From a virus (lineage: Duplodnaviria > Heunggongvirae > Uroviricota > Caudoviricetes): DNA of 5,860 nt. The notes under the pieces are model-generated. The model was not told the DNA's origin, did no database searches, and saw only the letters and a program-made list of their open reading frames with translations. The stretch lies in the IMG/VR virus record IMGVR_UViG_3300029121_000098. One strand, given 5' to 3'. Below are positions 2-5,567 of this stretch, piece by piece; the first letter of the stretch is position 1, and each line of letters opens with the position of its first letter. The position numbers were made by a program, and so were the translations under genes.

Positions 2-157
2 ATGAAGCAGCAAAAGGCGATGTTAATCGCCCTGATCGTCATCTGTTTAACCGTCATAGTGACGGCACTGGTAACGAGGAAAGACCTCTGCGAGGTACGA
101 ATCCGAACCGGCCAGACGGAGGTCGCTGTCTTCACAGCTTACGAACCTGAGGAGTAA
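2..157 (+). CDS. hokD: Hok/Gef-family type I membrane toxin, 51 aa (HokD/RelF-like)
   Basis: ATG at 2, TAA at 155-157. Translation MKQQKAMLIALIVICLTVIVTALVTRKDLCEVRIRTGQTEVAVFTAYEPEE: one hydrophobic helix plus a charged tail with a conserved Cys, matching the Hok/Gef family as I recall it. Absent from the ORF track because it is short. The mok/sok partners would lie upstream, outside the window. Confidence 0.88.
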   Translation: MKQQKAMLIALIVICLTVIVTALVTRKDLCEVRIRTGQTEVAVFTAYEPEE

Positions 158-164
158 GAGACCC

Positions 165-186
165 GGCGAGGGAGAAATCCCTCGCC
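165..186 (+). other. Perfect 9-bp stem-loop with GAAA tetraloop in the hok 3' UTR (candidate hok mRNA folding/processing element)
   Basis: GGCGAGGGA-GAAA-TCCCTCGCC; all nine pairs are Watson-Crick, starting 8 nt after the hok stop. Hok mRNAs are known to carry structured 3' elements (fbi); which element this is remains inference. Confidence 0.4.
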
Positions 187-225
187 ACCTCTGATGTGGC
201 AGGCATCCTCAACGCACCCGCACTT

Positions 226-252
226 AACCCGCTTCGGCGGGTTTTTGTTTTT
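226..252 (+). terminator. Rho-independent terminator downstream of hokD
   Basis: AACCCGC-TTCG-GCGGGTT hairpin followed by TTTTGTTTTT. Confidence 0.6.
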
Positions 253-373
253 ATTTTCAACGCGTTTGAAGTTCTGGACGGTGCCGGAATAGAATCAAAA
301 ATACTTAAGTAGCGCGCAGGGATAAGAGGGATGGTCCCTTAAAGGGGAGAGCTAATTATCCGGAAGAATTCTG

Positions 374-625
374 ATGATGAACATCGAAGAACTGCGTAAA
401 ATTTTTTGTGAAGATGGCCTCTATGCTGTGTGCGTTGAAAATGGAAATCTTGTTAGTCATTACCGCATTATGTGTTTGCGAAAGAATGGGGCTGCGTTAA
501 TTAATTTTGTGGATGGTCGAGTGACAGACGGATTTATCTTGCGCGAAGGTGAGTTTGTCACTTCATTACAGGCACTGAAAGAGATCGGAATAAAAGCAGG
601 CTTTTCAGCTTTTGCAGAAGAATAA
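374..625 (+). CDS. rem: Rem-like small prophage protein, 83 aa
   Basis: 83-aa ORF starting MMNIEELRKIF..., same length and gene neighbourhood (hokD - rem - ydfU) as Qin prophage Rem in E. coli K-12 as I recall it; weak GGAAG Shine-Dalgarno 8 nt upstream. Confidence 0.75.
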   Translation: MMNIEELRKIFCEDGLYAVCVENGNLVSHYRIMCLRKNGAALINFVDGRVTDGFILREGEFVTSLQALKEIGIKAGFSAFAEE

Positions 626-691
626 ACTCATCTACAATCTTGCGCGGGGCTGAACTCCCGCTGAGTAACACCGTGCCACCGGAGAAAACCG

Positions 692-970
692 ATGGCACGC
701 AACGTAAAATATTACAATTCTGATAATTCGCCCGTTCTTGCCTGCACGCACGAGCGGTATTCTCACGCATTCAAGTCTGAATGGTTCCAGCACCCTCCAT
801 GCACTGAAGAGCAGGCTGAATGGATAATTCAGTGTTACCGCAGGCGCGGATACGAGGTTAAGAAAGCCCTTAGTCTCGACTACCGTCACTGGATAATCTC
901 AGTCAGATTGCCTTACTCCGAACGCCCACCGCGTCCGTCCCGTACATTCCAGCAACGCATCTGGAGGTAA
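692..970 (+). CDS. Hypothetical prophage protein, 92 aa, Cys/His-containing
   Basis: ATG start with GGAGA Shine-Dalgarno about 7 nt upstream. Its stop (968-970) lies inside the Shine-Dalgarno/start region of the next gene (GGAGGTAACGTG), indicating translational coupling. No family recognised. Confidence 0.5.
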   Translation: MARNVKYYNSDNSPVLACTHERYSHAFKSEWFQHPPCTEEQAEWIIQCYRRRGYEVKKALSLDYRHWIISVRLPYSERPPRPSRTFQQRIWR

Positions 971-971
971 C

Positions 972-2021
972 GTGCGGGTATTACTTCGACCTGTTCTGGT
1001 ACCGGAACTCGGGCTGGTGGTCGTTAAGCCGGGCCGTGAATCCATGCCGGTATTCCACAATACCCGGGTACTGGTGGAGCCGGAACCGAAAAGCATGCGT
1101 AATCTGCCGTCCGGGGTCGTTCCTGCCGTTCGCCAGCCGCTGGTGGAAGACAAAACATTGCTGCCGTTTTTCAGTAACGCACGGGTAATTCGTGCTGCTG
1201 GTGGTGCTGGTGCATTGTCTGACTGGCTGTTGCGCCATATTAAATCCTGCCAGTGGCCACACGGCGATTATCATCACAGCGAAACCGTTATTCACCGTTA
1301 TGGTACCGGCGCAATGGTGTTGTGCTGGCACTGCGACAACCAGCTGTGTGACCAGACATCCGAATCACTCGAGCAGCTTGCTCATCAAAACCTGTCAGCA
1401 TGGATGATTGACGTCATCGGTCACGCAATAAGCGGTACGCAGGAGCGTGAATTATCTCTGGCTGAATTATCCTGGTGGGCGGTCCGCAATCAGGTGGCGG
1501 ACGCGCTACCGGAAGCGGTATTACGTCGTTCGCTGGGGTTGCGTGCGGAAAAAATCCGCTCAATGTACCGTGAAAGCGACATCGTACCGGGAGAGCAGAC
1601 CGCCACCAGCATACTGAAACAGCGCACAAAAAATCTTGCGCCGCTGCCTCACGCCCACCAGCAACAGAACCCACCACAGGAAAAGACGGTGGTCAGCATT
1701 GCCGTTGATCCTGAGTCTCCGGAATCTTTTATGAAACGACCTAAACGTCGCCGCTGGGTTAACGAGAAATACACACGCTGGGTGAAGACACAGCCGTGTG
1801 CGTGTTGTGGTAAGCCAGCCGACGATCCCCATCACCTGATTGGTCATGGTCAGGGCGGAATGGGGACAAAATCTCACGATATTTTCACGCTACCGCTGTG
1901 TCGGGAGCATCACAACGAGCTTCATGCGGATCCGCTGGCGTTCGAAGAAAAGCATGGTTCTCAGGTTGATTTAATTTTTCGTTTTCTTGATCACGCCTTT
2001 GCAACTGGCGTGCTTGGGTAA
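972..2021 (+). CDS. ydfU: YdfU-like prophage protein, 349 aa, with C-terminal HNH-like Cys/His motif
   Basis: GTG start preceded by GGAGG. Length and N-terminus (MRVLLRPVLVPELGLVV...) match Qin prophage YdfU as I recall it. C-terminal segment CACCGKPADDPHHLIGHGQGGMGTKSHDIFTLPLCREHHNELH resembles a zinc-binding HNH-type nuclease motif. Confidence 0.8.
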   Translation: MRVLLRPVLVPELGLVVVKPGRESMPVFHNTRVLVEPEPKSMRNLPSGVVPAVRQPLVEDKTLLPFFSNARVIRAAGGAGALSDWLLRHIKSCQWPHGDYHHSETVIHRYGTGAMVLCWHCDNQLCDQTSESLEQLAHQNLSAWMIDVIGHAISGTQERELSLAELSWWAVRNQVADALPEAVLRRSLGLRAEKIRSMYRESDIVPGEQTATSILKQRTKNLAPLPHAHQQQNPPQEKTVVSIAVDPESPESFMKRPKRRRWVNEKYTRWVKTQPCACCGKPADDPHHLIGHGQGGMGTKSHDIFTLPLCREHHNELHADPLAFEEKHGSQVDLIFRFLDHAFATGVLG

Positions 2022-2033
2022 AAGAGGTGACTG

Positions 2034-2408
2034 ATGCTCATAGATTTGGTTTTACCTTACCCGCCGACGGTGAACACTTACTGGCGACGCCGTGGCAGCA
2101 CATATTTTATCTCGGAGGAGGGAAAGCGTTATCGCCGGGCTGTGGCGCTTATTGTTCGCCAGCAGCGGCTGAAATTAAGCCTGTCCGGAAGGCTGGCGAT
2201 AAAGGTGATTGCAGAGCCACCGGATAAGCGTCGTCGCGACCTGGACAATATCCTGAAAGCACCGCTGGATGCGCTGACGCATGCGGGAGTGTTAATGGAC
2301 GATGAGCAGTTTGATGAAATCAATATCGTTCGTGGTCAGCCAGTATCTGGTGGACGTATGGGGGTGAAGATTTACCCCATAATGCATGAAGAGCAGGTCA
2401 AAAAATGA
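2034..2408 (+). CDS. rusA: RusA-family crossover junction endodeoxyribonuclease (Holliday junction resolvase), 124 aa
   Basis: AGAGGTG Shine-Dalgarno upstream. The acidic core PDKRRRDLDNILKAPLDALTHAGVLMDDEQ aligns with the [30 protein letters not shown] region of E. coli RusA as recalled. Position between the nin-like genes and Q is typical. Confidence 0.82.
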   Translation: MLIDLVLPYPPTVNTYWRRRGSTYFISEEGKRYRRAVALIVRQQRLKLSLSGRLAIKVIAEPPDKRRRDLDNILKAPLDALTHAGVLMDDEQFDEINIVRGQPVSGGRMGVKIYPIMHEEQVKK

Positions 2409-3226
2409 AACTGGAAGATTTACCGAAATACTACTCCCCAAAATCCCCTTGCCTGACCGATGCATCGGCTTCAACGTCAAAAGATGCGCTGAGTATCACT
2501 GATGTGATGGCCGCGCAGGGCATGACACAGAATCGGGCTGAGATGGGGTTTTCTGCGTTCCTGGGGAAAATGGGCATCAGTATGAATGACAGGGCACGGG
2601 CAACAGAATTACTGGCAGATTATGCACTCAGTCGGTGCGATCGTGTGGCGGCGTTGAGAAAACTTCCGGCAGAAATAAAACCGGTAGTGATGCGCATTAT
2701 GGCTTCGTACGCTTTTGAGGATTATGCCCGCAGCGCAGCGAGTAAAAAGCAGTGCCCTTGTTGCTATGGGGAAAAATTTATTGAAAGCGTAGTTTTTACA
2801 AACAAGGTCCAGTATCCGGATGGTAAGCCGCCGGTATGGGCAAAGTGTACGAAAGGTGTGTATCCGTCTTACTGGGAAGAATGGAAAAAAGTCAGGGAGG
2901 TGGTAAAAGTTGCCTGTCCGGAGTGTGGCGGAAAGGGTGAGGTTTCCACCGTCTGTAAGGATTGCCGTGGGCGTGGTGTCGCCATTCACCGTGAAGAGTC
3001 GGTAAAACGTGGTATGCCTGTTATCAGAGACTGCCAGCGTTGTGGTGGTCGTGGCTATGAAAGACTACCATCAACGGAGGCATTTAATGCTATATGCGAG
3101 GTGACAAACCAGATAACACGCGCGTCATGGGAAAAAACAGTTAAGAAATTCTATGATGCGCTGGTGACCCGGTTTGATATTGAAGAAGCATGGGCTGAGC
3201 GGCAGTTAAAAAAGGTAACTAGGTAA
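2405..3226 (+). CDS. Q: Lambda-type late antiterminator Q, 273 aa, with an enlarged Cys-rich insertion
   Basis: ATGA overlap with the rusA stop. Blocks KYYSPKSP, TDVMAAQGMTQNRAEMGFSAFLGK, ASYAFEDYARSAA, CQRCGGRGYERLP and SWEKTVKKFYDALV...VTR align with lambda Q (KFHSPKSP, TDVMAAMGMAQSQAGFGMAAFCGK, ATFAYADYCRSAA, CGRCKGVGYSRMP, TWSRTVKPLYDALV...VTR) as I recall it. Sits immediately upstream of a pR'-like promoter. Confidence 0.88.
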   Translation: MKLEDLPKYYSPKSPCLTDASASTSKDALSITDVMAAQGMTQNRAEMGFSAFLGKMGISMNDRARATELLADYALSRCDRVAALRKLPAEIKPVVMRIMASYAFEDYARSAASKKQCPCCYGEKFIESVVFTNKVQYPDGKPPVWAKCTKGVYPSYWEEWKKVREVVKVACPECGGKGEVSTVCKDCRGRGVAIHREESVKRGMPVIRDCQRCGGRGYERLPSTEAFNAICEVTNQITRASWEKTVKKFYDALVTRFDIEEAWAERQLKKVTR

Positions 3227-3231
3227 CAAGG

Positions 3232-3275
3232 TTGATTTTTCCGGAATCTGTGGTAAATTCATCATAATGATGGGC
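3232..3275 (+). promoter_or_regulatory. pR'-like late promoter with a promoter-proximal sigma70 pause element (Q engagement region)
   Basis: -35 TTGATT (3232-3237), 16-nt spacer, -10 TAAATT (3254-3259), identical to the lambda pR' -10 as I recall it. It is followed by CATCATAATGATGGG, a -10-like repeat resembling the lambda pause-inducing ACGATGGG segment. Confidence 0.55.
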
Positions 3276-3307
3276 TTTTTATGCCTGACGTTAGAAGAGT
3301 TTCTACA

Positions 3308-3332
3308 ACCCGCCGCCGAGCGGGTTTTTTAT
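3308..3332 (+). terminator. tR'-like rho-independent terminator
   Basis: ACCCGC-CGCCGA-GCGGGT hairpin followed by TTTTTTATT, about 45-65 nt downstream of the predicted start site. Confidence 0.6.
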
Positions 3333-3369
3333 TGCGGAATTAATTACGGACCGTTATTATTCTGCTCCC

Positions 3370-3445
3370 GGCCCTTTAGCTCAGTGGTGAGAGCGAGCGA
3401 CTCATAATCGCCAGGTCGCTGGTTCAAATCCAGCAAGGGCCACCA
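3370..3445 (+). tRNA. ileZ: tRNA-Ile2 (anticodon CAT, presumably lysidine-modified to read AUA)
   Basis: Cloverleaf fits: acceptor GGCCCTT/AAGGGCC, D-arm GCTC...GAGC, anticodon loop CTCATAA, T-arm CGCTGG-TTCAAAT-CCAGC, encoded CCA. Near-identical to E. coli ileX as recalled; the C4:G69/C5:G68 acceptor pairs fit an Ile2 (TilS substrate) rather than an elongator Met. Confidence 0.85.
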
Positions 3446-3528
3446 TCACAAACCGCCATTAGCTTATCAGGAAGAGCAGACGACACGATAACAGGGTTGT
3501 TGGTGCGGGGGCGGGTCCCCGATGGCGG

Positions 3529-3605
3529 TCGTTGTTAGCTCAGCCGGACAGAGCAATTGCCTTCTAAGCAATCGGTCACTGGTTCGAATCCAGTACAGCG
3601 CGCCA
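3529..3605 (+). tRNA. argO: tRNA-Arg (anticodon UCU, reads AGA)
   Basis: D-arm GCTC-AGCCGGACA-GAGC, anticodon stem ATTGC/GCAAT with loop CTTCTAA, T-arm ACTGG-TTCGAAT-CCAGT, encoded CCA. The 1:72 acceptor pair is T:C in my fold, so the 5' boundary is uncertain by 1-2 nt. Confidence 0.75.
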
Positions 3606-3715
3606 TATTCATTCTTCCAGATTCCTTCCGGCAGAGCCTTATACTGGAATATACCTGGCTCAGGATATTGTTGAAAACATAATATGTTTGTCAAAAATAA
3701 AAGTTCTGTTAAGTA

Positions 3716-4069
3716 TTGATTGAGTGTTTGTTATACGGTCTAATGGTTTTTTCAGCATTAAATATTTATCATTCATATGGTGTGGGTAGAGTGAATATTG
3801 ATGAGGCGTCGGGGTGTTTCATCCTTAGGCAGCGTATTGATATAGTCAATGCAGCACGAGCAAAGGCCTTCAGCCGTTTGACAGTTTTGTTCTGTGCTCC
3901 TGATCGTCTTTCGGGAAGAGACGTTATTATTCTGAATAGTGATGCTATACAGAGGGTTTGCGATGAGTTCATGGTTGCTAATTCAGAATTATTTGCTCTT
4001 GTTCAGGAGTACAACAGAATAGCCAGGACCTGTGGTATGGATGAACTTCGGATTACTCATCTGGGGTAG
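3716..4069 (+). CDS. Hypothetical 117-aa ORF (TTG start, no clear RBS); possibly a gene remnant
   Basis: Only ORF longer than 100 aa in the roughly 1-kb AT-rich stretch after the tRNAs; same strand as all flanking genes. The first in-frame ATG (3743) also lacks a Shine-Dalgarno. No family recognised. Confidence 0.3.
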   Translation: MIECLLYGLMVFSALNIYHSYGVGRVNIDEASGCFILRQRIDIVNAARAKAFSRLTVLFCAPDRLSGRDVIILNSDAIQRVCDEFMVANSELFALVQEYNRIARTCGMDELRITHLG

Positions 4070-4533
4070 ATACATATCTGGATTATCACCTGTTACGGTA
4101 AAAAGTGATTGCTTACTGTTTTTGTGAATGGCATTGCAGCAGCCGGATAATATCAGTGCTGGCTGACGGTGTGCTGGTGGCGGGTGTGGTGGTTGTTGCT
4201 TTCCCGTTGCTGAAAAAGAAAACGCCAGACTGTTAGCCGGGTATCAGTTAGCGGGAGAAATTTTTAAATACTTCACAATTCAGGCGGTTGACTGTTCTCT
4301 GGTTTGCGGGGAGTTTGTTAAAAGAAACTGGCATGGTGAATCCCCCTGTGCGGAGGGGCAATCAGCGAGTAGGTATATGGGATAATCGCGGATTCAGGTG
4401 CTGGTACTGAATTCACCCGGCACCATGCACTTCAATAGATTCTCTCCACATTATGGATATTCTTTCAGAATATCCCACGCAGACTTTGTGTAAATGTTAA
4501 CAAATGTGCGTTTTATTTGATCTGATTCGCTGT

Positions 4534-4563
4534 TTGAGCGTCCAAAACAACGGTATATATAAT
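4534..4563 (+). promoter_or_regulatory. Candidate sigma70 promoter for the TolA-like lipoprotein genes
   Basis: -35 TTGAGC (4534-4539), 18-nt spacer, consensus -10 TATAAT (4558-4563), about 30 nt upstream of the 4593 start codon. Confidence 0.4.
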
Positions 4564-4592
4564 CCTTTACTATATGACATATGTGAGGAAAA

Positions 4593-5021
4593 ATGGGTTT
4601 TCGTAGCGCATCAATTCTTACGTTGATTATTAGTGGGATTATTATCGGGTGCACTGATGCTGTATCGACAAATTATCATGACCGTACATCATATTACTCC
4701 GATAAAGCAATAGAGACACAGTATGTGAGTTCATCTGAACGTACTTCTGATGTTAGTGAGGATATCCGTCTGTATGCCCATCAAATCAAGAGCGCCATCG
4801 AAAAACAGTTCGGGGATGCGAGTAAGTATTCAGGAAAAGAGTGTACACTGAGAATGCATATGGCCCCGAATGGCCTTCTACTGGAGGTTAAAAGAGAAAG
4901 TGGAGACCTCGATTTATGTCGTGAAGCGATGAATGCGATAAAGAATGCTGATATACCTGCCCCCCCTTCGCCGGAAGTATATAAAGTATTTCAAAATGGG
5001 GTGCTGGATTTTAAACCCTGA
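4593..5021 (+). CDS. Lipoprotein with C-terminal TolA domain III-like fold, 142 aa
   Basis: GAGGA Shine-Dalgarno before the ATG. Signal peptide MGFRSASILTLIISGIIIG with lipobox Cys (IIGC), then a Ser/Thr/Tyr-rich linker. The C-terminus IKSAIEKQFGDASKYSGKECTLRMHMAPNGLLLEVKRESGDLDLCREAMNAIKNADIPAPPSPEVYKVFQNGVLDFKP aligns almost residue for residue with the E. coli TolA C-terminus (QIKSAIESKFYDASSYAGKTCTLRIKLAPDGMLLDIKPEGGDPALCQAALAAAKLAKIPKPPSQAVYEVFKNAPLDFKP) as I recall it, including both cysteines. Confidence 0.8.
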   Translation: MGFRSASILTLIISGIIIGCTDAVSTNYHDRTSYYSDKAIETQYVSSSERTSDVSEDIRLYAHQIKSAIEKQFGDASKYSGKECTLRMHMAPNGLLLEVKRESGDLDLCREAMNAIKNADIPAPPSPEVYKVFQNGVLDFKP

Positions 5022-5171
5022 TATTTATTGTTTTGTAATAAACGGTTTCGGCTTAGGTTTGTTCTGACACAACTACGGCACTGAGCTAAATTTAGCGGAT
5101 AGTCAGCTCTGAGCCAGTGGCGGACGTAACAACTACTATTGCTGAGATTTTAATGGATTGAGGAGCAAGAA

Positions 5172-5567
5172 GTGGGATTAAAGAAAATCGTTATGTTGAC
5201 TTTTTGGGTCGGTTTTGTTGCGGGATGCACACCTTTACACCCTTCAGATTGCCACAAAACTACTGCTACAGGTAGTTGCAGTTCAGGACGCTGGGATGAT
5301 CAGGATGAATGGGGGGCGCAAGCGCGGGGAATCAGAGCTGCAATTAATGCCAAACTTGATGAGCCGCATAACTGGAAAGGGAAAAAATGCAGGTTGCATA
5401 TGGAATTCTCTCAGGATGGCACGGCGTTAAAAATATCTACCAGTAATGGTGATAAAGCCTATTGCGAAGCGATAAAGTCCGCAGCTCATAAAGCCAAATT
5501 TCCGGCCTTCAACAATCCGGAAGTCTACAGAGATTTTCAGAAATCTGGCTTTGACATGCGAGGTTAG
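5172..5567 (+). CDS. Second, divergent TolA domain III-like lipoprotein (paralogue), 131 aa
   Basis: GTG start 6 nt after a GAGGAG Shine-Dalgarno. Signal peptide MGLKKIVMLTFWVGFVAG with lipobox Cys (VAGC). C-terminus GIRAAINAKL...GKKCRLHMEFSQDGTALKISTSNGDKAYCEAIKSAAHKAKFPAFNNPEVYRDFQ aligns with the upstream paralogue and with TolA domain III, keeping both cysteines. Confidence 0.75.
   Translation: MGLKKIVMLTFWVGFVAGCTPLHPSDCHKTTATGSCSSGRWDDQDEWGAQARGIRAAINAKLDEPHNWKGKKCRLHMEFSQDGTALKISTSNGDKAYCEAIKSAAHKAKFPAFNNPEVYRDFQKSGFDMRG

What the first reader, a model, noticed from the sequence alone, without database searches (positions are those of the whole stretch)
3370..3605. Phage tRNA pair decoding rare AUA and AGA codons, with no third tRNA and an atypical acceptor stem
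Both tRNAs read codons that are rare in E. coli. I counted in-frame AGA and ATA codons in the cargo genes: the first lipoprotein has at least two AGA (LRM, KRE) and three ATA; the second has two AGA and one ATA. This fits tRNA supply matched to cargo expression. Stx phages carry three tRNAs (ileZ-argN-argO), but here the 83-nt spacer (3446-3528) does not fold into a cloverleaf. The tRNA-Arg also has a T:C mismatch at 1:72 in my fold.
Basis: partly seen in the sequence, partly recalled or inferred. Interest (0 to 1): 0.4.

Follow-up and report, generated by a model that had tools for sequence, protein, structure and literature searches.

The report
Known prophage tRNA cassette, partly broken
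This is the familiar isoleucine/arginine tRNA cassette that lambda-like E. coli prophages carry just after their late-gene switch; here the middle slot holds a tRNA-shaped relic that cannot decode, and a rare 17-base deletion has removed the first base of the arginine tRNA, so the feature is ordinary and partly damaged rather than specially designed.

Summary
They are the ileZ and argO genes of the lambdoid ileZ-argN-argO cassette, just downstream of antiterminator Q and its terminator in a Qin-like E. coli prophage.

The "spacer" is not plain spacer. It fills the argN slot and keeps argN's acceptor, D and T stems. Its anticodon arm is replaced by a 7-bp hairpin with a 3-nt loop, and its T loop is mutated. 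It still folds into a four-arm cloverleaf-like shape. The same two-tRNA state is already annotated in Stx2e phage P27, and matches consistent with it occur in about 1,270 E. coli records.

The U1:C72 mismatch comes from a 17-bp deletion. It removed the relic's CCA, the 13-nt linker and G1 of argO. I found this allele in one of 5,426 complete E. coli genomes and one IMG/VR contig. RefSeq annotates no tRNA-Arg in that genome but does in undeleted alleles.

ATA and AGA are 5-7 times enriched in the cargo genes, but similarly enriched in lysis and defence genes and less so (3-5 times) in early genes. The feature is already known; interest is low.

The parts
2405..3226 (+). Antiterminator Q gene. 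It marks the start of the late operon and the canonical position of the tRNA cassette.
   Evidence: Pfam PF03589 'Antitermination protein Q', E = 2e-54. RefSeq annotates it 'antitermination protein' in the near-identical record.
3307..3333 (+). Intrinsic terminator after the late-promoter leader (tR'-like). The tRNAs lie just downstream of it, so Q-modified transcription would read into them.
   Evidence: Terminator scan finds a 7-bp stem with 5 G-C pairs followed by TTTTTTATTG. The role as tR' is inferred from its position after Q.
3332..3360 (+). Putative tRNA promoter (TTGCGG, 17-nt spacer, TATTAT).
   Evidence: It aligns column for column with the feature annotated 'pT; putative tRNA promoter' in Stx2 phage 06-3462, L003 3003-3031. 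The generic promoter scan does not call it. Activity was not tested.
3370..3445 (+). ileZ: tRNA with CAU anticodon of the Ile2 type, which reads AUA after lysidine modification. CCA is encoded.
   Evidence: ARAGORN. Rfam tRNA 72.5 bits. 76/76 identical to ileZ of an Stx2 phage. RefSeq annotates the identical sequence tRNA-Ile. 68/76 identical to host ileX, with a compensatory change at pair 6:67.
3453..3529 (+). tRNA-shaped relic in the argN slot.
- Acceptor strands: 3453-3459 and 3522-3528.
- D arm: 3462-3477.
- Hairpin replacing the anticodon arm: 3486-3502 (CGATAAC-AGG-GTTGTTG).
- T-like arm: 3506-3521, with a 6-nt loop GCGGGT in place of TTCGAGT.
- No CCA.
   Evidence: Alignments to argN of an Stx2 phage, to phage P27 and to mEp460. 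Fold. Neither ARAGORN nor Rfam calls it a tRNA. It has 0.159 variable columns per nt against 0.066 for ileZ across 22 haplotypes.
3529..3530 (+). Junction of a 17-bp deletion. Relative to mEp460 the missing bases are CCATTATCGGTATTCAG: the relic's CCA, the 13-nt linker and G1 of argO.
   Evidence: Alignment A2. The junction 23-mer occurs only in CP151161 and in IMG/VR UViG_2778261105_000008, and in no JGI metagenome contig.
3529..3605 (+). argO: tRNA-Arg(UCU) for AGA/AGG. It has U1xC72 in place of G1:C72, and U4.G69. CCA is encoded.
   Evidence: ARAGORN. Rfam gives 59.1 bits, against 68.0 bits for the undeleted copy in mEp460. The acceptor stem was read directly. RefSeq does not annotate it in the identical allele but does in undeleted alleles.
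4105..5567 (+). Downstream cargo ('moron') genes used for the codon test: DUF3927 (4105-4236) and two TolA C-terminal-domain lipoproteins (4593-5021, 5172-5567). An STnc100-like sRNA lies between them (4302-4482).
   Evidence: Pfam PF13064 and PF06519. Rfam RF02076, 84.9 bits. Codon counts.

Best explanation
The segment is a copy of the tRNA cassette that lambdoid prophages of E. coli carry between antiterminator Q with its terminator and the moron/lysis region. This is the cassette named ileZ-argN-argO in Stx phages. Here it sits in a Qin-like prophage. Closely related copies of that prophage are complete, running from integrase to tail gene J.

ileZ (3370-3445) is intact. After lysidine modification of C34 by host TilS it should read AUA.

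The middle slot (3453-3529) holds a tRNA-shaped relic, not tRNA-Arg(UCG). The relic keeps the acceptor, D and T stems of argN. It has a 7-bp/3-nt hairpin where the anticodon arm should be and a mutated 6-nt T loop. It therefore cannot decode and is most likely a pseudogene. This two-tRNA state is common and is already annotated in phage P27.

The copy in the window also carries a rare 17-bp deletion. The deletion fused the relic's 3' acceptor strand directly to argO and removed argO's G1, leaving U1xC72. argO keeps its anticodon UCU, a D-loop A at the A20 position and G73, so it may still be charged. Its 5' processing and its use in elongation are probably impaired.

Shown: homology, anatomy, allele rarity and codon statistics. 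Inferred: expression from pT and from the late promoter, lysidine modification, and reduced function of argO.
For: - **Position.** Q (Pfam), then a terminator at 3307-3333, then the tRNAs, the morons and the lysis genes.
- **Homology.** Of 289 phage records with a match, most are Stx phages annotated ileZ/argN/argO. P27 is annotated ileZ + argO. mEp460 matches at 95.9% over the full length.
- **ileZ.** It is identical to ileZ of an Stx2 phage.
- **The relic.** The alignments show it sharing argN's arms but not its anticodon arm, and they show the 17-bp gap that removes G1.
- **Allele frequencies.** One full-length identical match among 5,426 complete genomes. The next 59 records are the 208-nt undeleted allele, and 1,270 records fall in that identity band. 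The junction occurs in only one IMG/VR contig and in no metagenome contig.
- **Annotation contrast.** RefSeq gives tRNA-Ile only in the deleted allele, and tRNA-Arg plus tRNA-Ile in every listed undeleted allele.
- **Scores.** The Rfam score falls from 68.0 to 59.1 bits and the fold energy from -23.1 to -18.5 kcal/mol.
- **Variation across 22 haplotypes.** The relic varies more than ileZ (0.159 against 0.066 variable columns per nt), with indels and one stem-breaking change. argO shows a compensatory 51:65 change, as expected for a working tRNA.
- **Other eroded forms.** A few loci have ileZ and the relic but no called argO, and some genomes match the window only as far as the relic.
Against: - ARAGORN and Rfam still call the window's tRNA-Arg with good scores, so loss of function is not shown.
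- The reason RefSeq omits it is unknown. I could not run tRNAscan-SE, and the contrast rests on a single genome carrying the deleted allele.
- The relic keeps a stable four-arm fold, and related tRNA-like elements elsewhere are strongly conserved. 'Pseudogene' may therefore be too simple for the lineage as a whole.
- No expression data were available.
Confidence: 0.85

Rival explanations
1. This is a purpose-matched two-tRNA set that supplies AUA and AGA decoding specifically for the downstream cargo lipoproteins, with an ordinary spacer and an acceptor stem that is unusual by design.
For: The cargo genes have ATA at 22.2 and AGA at 12.7 per 1000 codons, against 4.0 and 1.8 in 56 host genes (p = 3e-4 and 3e-3). 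The tRNAs and the cargo lie on the same strand downstream of the same terminator.
Against: - The enrichment is not specific to the cargo. Early genes have 11.4/8.9, lysis genes 19.4/11.6 and defence genes 37.5/10.9 per 1000.
- The same cassette sits upstream of entirely different cargo, such as stx in P27 and Stx2 phages.
- The spacer is homologous to argN's arms.
- The mismatch is confined to one rare allele.
Confidence: 0.08
2. The middle element is not junk. It belongs to a family of non-decoding tRNA-like RNAs that keep an acceptor/T-arm 'minihelix' and carry a free-form third hairpin. Such an RNA could act as a processing signal for RNase P or the CCA-adding enzyme within the late transcript, or as a decoy for tRNA-binding factors.
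For: - Elements in Salmonella, Citrobacter, Buttiauxella, Lelliottia, Brenneria and Proteus have the same acceptor stem, which the search pattern required. They also have near-identical D and T arms, which the pattern did not require. Their third arms are unrelated in sequence, yet most fold as a hairpin.
- The window's hairpin is homologous to that of a chromosomal element between yahL and yahM.
- That chromosomal element is 81/81 identical in five Escherichia species, while its flanks are 55-77% identical where they align.
- In a Proteus prophage the element again lies just downstream of a Q homologue.
Against: - In the window's lineage the T loop has lost TTCGAGT and become a 6-nt GCGGGT.
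- The D stem has a G.U pair, the CCA is deleted, and sister haplotypes carry indels and a stem-breaking G-to-C change.
- No tRNA model recognises it.
- There are no transcript data.
- The search pattern fixed 21 acceptor-arm bases, which biases the sample toward conserved-looking copies.
Confidence: 0.1
3. The 17-bp gap, and hence the U1:C72 mismatch, is a sequencing or assembly artefact.
For: It is extremely rare: one of 5,426 complete genomes. The window also has a second small private deletion of 10 bp at about 4413.
Against: The same junction is present in three sequences that differ from each other elsewhere. These are the window, CP151161 (5 mismatches and one indel against the window) and IMG/VR UViG_2778261105_000008 (4 mismatches and one indel). 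The deleted stretch is not a homopolymer.
Confidence: 0.03

Closest known systems
ileZ-argN-argO tRNA cluster of Stx2-converting lambdoid phages (933W/Sakai type; here phage 06-3462, OP797663, and Stx2a_WGPS8)
   Same: Same position after Q and upstream of the moron slot. ileZ is identical. The putative pT promoter is conserved. argO is homologous with the same UCU anticodon. The spacing between ileZ and the middle element is the same.
   Different: The middle gene there is a real tRNA-Arg(UCG) of 77 nt with CCA. Here it is a tRNA-shaped relic with a foreign hairpin. argO there has G1:C72 and A69. A terminator and stx follow the cassette there, whereas TolA-domain lipoprotein morons follow it here.
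ileZ + argO pair of Stx2e phage P27 (AJ298298, AJ249351)
   Same: The record annotates two tRNAs (ileZ, argO). The region between them carries the same replaced anticodon arm, GACGACACGATAACAGGGTTGTTGGTG. This is the already-described 'two tRNA' state.
   Different: P27's relic keeps the TTCGAGT T loop and the CCA. The 13-nt linker and G1 of argO are present. The cargo is stx2e.
Escherichia phage mEp460 (LR597641) and the roughly 1,270 E. coli records consistent with the 208-nt allele
   Same: Same relic with the same mutated T loop, same G69, and the same cargo genes. This is the direct parent allele.
   Different: It lacks the 17-bp deletion. Its argO scores 68.0 bits, and RefSeq annotates tRNA-Arg in the E. 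coli genomes that carry this allele (the mEp460 record itself annotates no tRNA).
Host tRNA-Ile2 genes ileX/ileY and host argU (tRNA-Arg UCU)
   Same: ileZ shares 68/76 bases with ileX, including the CUCAUAA loop, C4:G69 and C5:G68. argO has the same anticodon as argU (own knowledge of argU).
   Different: These are phage-borne paralogues. ileZ has A27xC43 where ileX has G27.U43.
tRNA genes downstream of Q in other lambdoid phages (SfI, Sf6, ST64T, P21)
   Same: Same genomic slot and the same proposed role of supplementing rare-codon decoding (PMC3636060, read).
   Different: Those are tRNA-Asn and tRNA-Thr, not Ile/Arg.

Membership tests
Lambdoid prophage ileZ-argN-argO cassette | Lies immediately downstream of antiterminator Q and its terminator, upstream of the moron and lysis genes, on the late-operon strand | tested here: met
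   Q at 2405-3226 (Pfam), terminator at 3307-3333, tRNAs at 3370-3605, lysis genes downstream in the matching genome.
Lambdoid prophage ileZ-argN-argO cassette | First gene is ileZ (CAU anticodon, Ile2 type) | tested here: met
   76/76 identical to ileZ of an Stx2 phage. RefSeq annotates it tRNA-Ile.
Lambdoid prophage ileZ-argN-argO cassette | Second gene is argN, a tRNA-Arg with anticodon UCG | tested here: not met
   ARAGORN and Rfam make no tRNA call in 3446-3528. The anticodon arm is replaced by a 7-bp/3-nt hairpin.
Lambdoid prophage ileZ-argN-argO cassette | Third gene is argO, a tRNA-Arg with anticodon UCU | tested here: met
   ARAGORN calls tRNA-Arg(tct). It differs from mEp460 argO only at position 1.
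tRNA-Ile2 (lysidine-dependent, ileX/ileY type) | CAU anticodon in a CUCAUAA loop, plus C4:G69 and C5:G68 in the acceptor stem. These are the TilS determinants according to published work that I recall and did not re-read here. | tested here: met
   Read directly from the sequence. 68/76 identity to ileX, whose sequence I confirmed in 5,424 genomes annotated tRNA-Ile.
tRNA-Ile2 (lysidine-dependent, ileX/ileY type) | C34 is actually converted to lysidine and the tRNA is charged with isoleucine | not testable with these tools
   Needs mass spectrometry or tRNA sequencing.
Canonical bacterial elongator tRNA (applied to argO) | Seven-pair acceptor stem with a standard 1:72 pair | tested here: not met
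   T1xC72. G1 is present in 21 of 22 cassette haplotypes.
Canonical bacterial elongator tRNA (applied to argO) | ArgRS identity elements: A20 in the D loop, C35, U36, and A or G at position 73 (own knowledge of E. coli ArgRS) | tested here: met
   The D loop reads AGCCGGACA, with an A at the A20 position by my own numbering. The anticodon is TCT and the discriminator is G. Charging itself was not tested.
tRNA gene (applied to the relic 3453-3529) | 7-nt anticodon loop with U33, a T loop with T54-Psi55-C56, and recognition by tRNA models | tested here: not met
   The loop is AGG (3 nt), the T loop is GCGGGT, and ARAGORN and Rfam give no hit.

The most novel reading that the evidence does not exclude
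The element in the argN slot belongs to an undescribed family of non-decoding, tRNA-shaped RNAs in Enterobacterales and their lambdoid prophages. Members share a fixed acceptor/D/T 'chassis' with encoded CCA and carry a free-form third hairpin.

One chromosomal member lies between yahL and yahM in E. coli K-12, under the annotated xtpA ORF. It is base-for-base identical across five Escherichia species although its flanks are only 55-77% identical where they align. Such RNAs might punctuate transcripts for RNase P and CCA-adding enzyme processing, or act as decoys for factors that bind tRNA.

The window's copy would be a decayed representative of this family.
Probability: 0.12. Interest if true: 0.55.

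Novelty: already known. Interest (0 to 1): 0.15.

Why it matters
For the finding as stated, it matters little. It re-identifies a cassette described with the first Stx phage genomes.

Three practical points follow:
- tRNA finders disagree on this allele. ARAGORN and Rfam accept it, while RefSeq annotation omits it.
- A strain with this allele probably gains AUA decoding from the prophage but gains less, or no, extra AGA/AGG decoding.
- Rare-codon enrichment near phage tRNAs should be compared with the rest of the mobile element before 'cargo matching' is claimed.

The only lead of wider interest is the side observation of a tRNA-shaped element family with a perfectly conserved chromosomal member.

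Tried and rejected
- **Third tRNA in the spacer.** ARAGORN and an Rfam scan at E up to 1 on the window found none. An Rfam scan at E up to 10 on mEp460's copy of the cassette also found none. A weak YrlA (Y RNA-like) hit there (16.2 bits, E = 0.8) spans half of ileZ and half of the relic, so I dismissed it as chance.
- **Spacer as a simple deletion remnant of argN.** Rejected. It is 3-4 nt longer than argN (74 nt to the discriminator), and its middle part is homologous to a different tRNA-like lineage, not to argN.
- **Cargo-specific codon matching.** Rejected after comparison with the early, lysis, defence and structural genes of the same prophage.
- **Assembly artefact for the deletion.** Rejected, because three different sequences share the junction.
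- **Literature.** Searches for ileZ/argN/argO, XtpA, and yahM with 'tRNA-like' found no paper on any of them in the held library. Plunkett 1999 and Recktenwald & Schmidt 2002 could not be fetched, so the naming history rests on GenBank annotations and my own recollection.
- **orf3716 (3716-4069).** It is rich in AGA, AGG and ATA, but it has no Pfam hit and RefSeq does not annotate it. I reported the codon test both with and without it.
- **Type-C element in phages.** The exact hairpin pattern is absent from IMG/VR.

Full report
**1. What is in the sequence**

ARAGORN finds exactly two tRNA genes in the window. One is at 3370-3445 with anticodon CAT and one at 3529-3605 with anticodon TCT. The Rfam tRNA model scores them 72.5 and 59.1 bits against a gathering score of 29. 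In the second it marks only pair 1:72 as non-canonical. Reading the bases directly gives the acceptor stem T1xC72, C2:G71, G3:C70, T4.G69, T5:A68, G6:C67, T7:A66, then discriminator G and an encoded CCA. Neither tool reports a tRNA in 3446-3528.

**2. Genomic setting**

The window is the late-control region of a lambdoid prophage of E. coli.
- The whole window matches 356 complete E. coli genomes over at least 80% of its length. The best match is strain 20220828076 (CP151161), at 99.7% identity.
- The gene order in that record is hokD, rem, a DUF968 gene, rusA, an antitermination protein, tRNA-Ile, DUF3927, two TolA C-terminal-domain genes, then essD, lysozyme and Rz.
- The prophage there is complete from integrase to tail gene J and lies next to rspB, the Qin position.
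- Pfam confirms Q (PF03589, E = 2e-54), DUF3927 and two TolA_C proteins.
- An intrinsic terminator lies at 3307-3333, between Q and the tRNAs.
- Window 3332-3360 (TTGCGG, 17 nt, TATTAT) aligns with the feature annotated 'pT, putative tRNA promoter' in an Stx2 phage.
- tRNA genes directly downstream of Q are a known feature of lambdoid phages (PMC3636060).

**3. Identity of the two tRNAs**

A search of the phage collection returns 289 records. Most are Stx-converting phages whose features under the match are named ileZ, argN and argO. Phage P27 is annotated with tRNA-Ile (ileZ) and tRNA-Arg (argO) only.

The window's CAT tRNA is identical over all 76 bases to ileZ of Stx2 phage 06-3462. RefSeq annotates the same sequence as tRNA-Ile. 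It shares 68 of 76 bases with the host ileX gene. I recalled the ileX sequence from memory and then confirmed it at 100% identity in 5,424 of 5,426 genomes annotated tRNA-Ile. The CUCAUAA loop, C4:G69 and C5:G68 are kept, and pair 6:67 has changed on both sides. ARAGORN's 'Met' label is therefore the usual mislabel of a lysidine-type tRNA-Ile2. The modification itself cannot be tested here.

The TCT tRNA is argO.

**4. The 'spacer' is the argN slot occupant**

The alignment with Stx2 phage 06-3462, P27 and mEp460 shows that 3453-3529 begins with argN's 5' acceptor strand and D arm (CCGCCATTAGCT.ATC.GGA). It ends with argN's T stem and 3' acceptor strand (CGGGG...CC.CGATGGCGGT). The anticodon arm of argN (CCAGC-CTTCGAA-GCTGG) is replaced by GACGACACGATAACAGGGTTGTTGGTG. 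P27 carries exactly the same replacement, so the two-tRNA state is the one already on record for P27. The window and mEp460 also have a mutated T loop, GCGGGT (6 nt) instead of TTCGAGT.

It has an 8-bp acceptor helix, a D arm, a 7-bp stem with an AGG triloop, and a 5-bp T-like stem (-30.3 kcal/mol, z = -2.2). With a 3-nt loop and no T-Psi-C it cannot work as a decoding tRNA.

Across 22 haplotypes of this cassette type, the relic has 0.159 variable columns per nt against 0.066 for ileZ. The variation includes indels and a G-to-C change that breaks a hairpin pair. argO, by contrast, shows a compensatory 51:65 change. For the window's lineage that pattern fits a decaying pseudogene flanked by working genes.

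**5. Origin of the U1:C72 mismatch**

Relative to mEp460, P27 and Stx2 phages, the window lacks 17 bases between GATGGCGGT and CGTTGTT. In mEp460 these bases are CCATTATCGGTATTCAG. They are the relic's CCA, the 13-nt linker and G1 of argO. T3529, the relic's discriminator base, now sits at position 1 of argO opposite C72.
- The undeleted argO scores 68.0 bits in Rfam and folds at -23.1 kcal/mol. The window's copy scores 59.1 bits and folds at -18.5 kcal/mol.
- Among 5,426 complete E. coli genomes, only CP151161 has a full-length identical match to 3430-3620. The next 59 records all carry the 208-nt undeleted allele, and 1,270 records fall in that identity band.
- The junction 23-mer occurs in one IMG/VR contig (UViG_2778261105_000008) and in no JGI metagenome contig.
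- The window, CP151161 and the IMG/VR contig differ from one another at several other sites, so the deletion is real and is shared by a small lineage.
- RefSeq annotates tRNA-Arg plus tRNA-Ile in every listed undeleted allele, but only tRNA-Ile in CP151161.
- G69 (U4.G69) is an older polymorphism, found in 13 of 22 haplotypes.

**6. Likely function**

The following are inferred rather than shown.
- Both tRNAs would be transcribed from pT in the lysogen and by Q-modified read-through of the terminator after induction.
- ileZ should add AUA-decoding capacity.
- argO keeps UCU, a D-loop A at the A20 position and G73, so ArgRS may still charge it.
- Established knowledge of E. coli tRNA biology, which I did not test here, says that a 1:72 mismatch is the hallmark of initiator tRNA. 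Such a mismatch weakens EF-Tu binding and blocks peptidyl-tRNA hydrolase.
- The 5' leader of argO is now the G+C-rich 3' strand of the relic's acceptor helix with no linker, which may disturb RNase P cleavage.

I therefore regard argO in this allele as probably impaired, though impairment has not been demonstrated.

**7. Codon test**

In 56 host genes of CP151161 (17,459 codons), ATA, AGA and AGG occur at 4.0, 1.8 and 0.7 per 1000 codons. The three cargo genes (316 codons) have 22.2, 12.7 and 3.2 per 1000, with p = 3e-4 for ATA and 3e-3 for AGA.

The same prophage shows the following values per 1000 codons:

| Gene set | ATA | AGA | AGG |
|---|---|---|---|
| Host (56 genes) | 4.0 | 1.8 | 0.7 |
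| Cargo (3 genes) | 22.2 | 12.7 | 3.2 |
| Early/regulatory | 11.4 | 8.9 | 5.8 |
| Lysis | 19.4 | 11.6 | 3.9 |
| ABC-three-component defence | 37.5 | 10.9 | 3.6 |
| Structural late | 3.6 | 3.2 | 4.0 |

The structural late genes are host-like for ATA, mildly enriched for AGA, and more strongly enriched for AGG (4.0) and CGG (14.8 against 4.7 in the host). The bias tracks A+T-rich accessory DNA in general, not this cargo in particular. The same cassette also precedes quite different cargo (stx) in other phages.

**8. Side observation**

A scan for argN's acceptor arms with any 45-75 nt between them recovered several classes.
- Intact argN (74 nt to the discriminator, inside three-tRNA cassettes): 71 loci.
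- The window-type relic flanked by ileZ and argO: about 37 loci.
- Stand-alone tRNA-shaped elements in Escherichia, Salmonella, Citrobacter, Buttiauxella, Pseudocitrobacter, Lelliottia, Brenneria and Proteus. Their D and T arms and encoded CCA are nearly identical. Their third arms are unrelated in sequence, yet most fold as a hairpin with a loop of 3-7 nt.

The window's hairpin is homologous to that of the Escherichia chromosomal element, not to argN. That element has these properties:
- It lies between yahL and yahM, inside the ORF annotated xtpA in NC_000913.3.
- It is present in 5,171 of 5,426 genomes.
- It is absent from IMG/VR.
- Rfam does not recognise it as a tRNA.
- It is 81/81 identical in E. 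coli, E. albertii, E. whittamii, E. ruysiae and Escherichia sp. E1V33. Where the flanks align they are 55-77% identical, and downstream of the element the alignment is mostly gaps in three of these species.
- A transcription start site upstream of yahM, repressed by IHF, has been reported.

This suggests that the wider lineage may contain functional non-decoding tRNA-like RNAs. The sample is biased, however, because the search pattern fixed the acceptor sequence. The window's own copy also shows clear decay.

**9. Verdict**

The feature is an already known cassette in a common two-tRNA form, carrying a rare lesion. Novelty: already known. Interest: low (0.15). The most novel reading still open is the tRNA-like RNA family, at a probability of about 0.12.

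Noticed in passing
Outside the window: L163 (NC_000913.3) about 2335-2415, which is record positions 345334-345414; also L012 727-807: An unannotated 81-nt tRNA-shaped element with encoded CCA lies between yahL and yahM, under the annotated xtpA ORF. It is present in 5,171 of 5,426 E. coli genomes and is 81/81 identical across five Escherichia species, while its flanks are 55-77% identical where they align. It has a 7-bp stem and a 6-nt loop in place of an anticodon arm, and Rfam's tRNA model does not hit it.
   Followed up: partly
L010, L023 (Salmonella), L038 (Citrobacter), L017 (Buttiauxella), L019/L032 (Pseudocitrobacter), L031 (Lelliottia), L013/L037 (Brenneria), L021 (Proteus): Stand-alone tRNA-like elements share argN's acceptor stem, have near-identical D and T arms and CCA, but carry unrelated third hairpins. 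ARAGORN gives them odd calls: '?(gg)', Glu, His, Lys, Asn. Several sit near integrase fragments or IS elements. The Proteus one lies downstream of a Q homologue and upstream of lysis genes.
   Followed up: partly
window 4302-4482: STnc100-family sRNA (Rfam RF02076, 84.9 bits, gathering score 47) between DUF3927 and the first TolA-domain gene. The window's copy lacks 10 nt (CACCGGGAGG, flanked by a CACC repeat) at about 4413. Those bases are present in CP151161, mEp460 and the IMG/VR contig, and their loss removes a small hairpin.
   Followed up: partly
window 4593-5021 and 5172-5567: Two tandem small lipoproteins (lipoboxes IIGC and VAGC) consist of a TolA C-terminal domain (PF06519). As prophage morons they might interfere with TolA-dependent phage or colicin entry. 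That idea is speculation and was not examined.
   Followed up: no
window 3227-3333: The leader between Q and the tRNAs ends in a strong intrinsic terminator and gives a sub-threshold Trp_leader hit (25.7 bits). It is probably the short late-promoter transcript that Q antiterminates, the counterpart of the region that yields a regulatory sRNA in Stx phages (own recollection).
   Followed up: no
window 161-247: Sub-threshold Rfam hits to isrK (25.7 bits, gathering score 50) and rsmX lie just downstream of hokD. They may be chance or part of the hok/sok-type RNA structure.
   Followed up: no
L161 20461-23005 (CP151161, upstream of the window's left end): An ABC-three-component defence system (three genes, 32.7% G+C) is inserted in the prophage early region. 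It has the most extreme ATA usage in the prophage, 37.5 per 1000 codons.
   Followed up: no
L161 33312-48160 (structural late genes of the same prophage): The structural genes use CGG three times more often than the host sample (14.8 against 4.7 per 1000) and CGA 2.7 times more (7.3 against 2.7). These codons would be read by argN's UCG anticodon (own knowledge of wobble decoding), and argN is the tRNA this cassette lacks.
   Followed up: no
E. coli genomes H74-H77 and three loci: Other eroded forms of the cassette exist. Some have ileZ plus the relic with no recognisable argO downstream, and some have argO alone.
   Followed up: no
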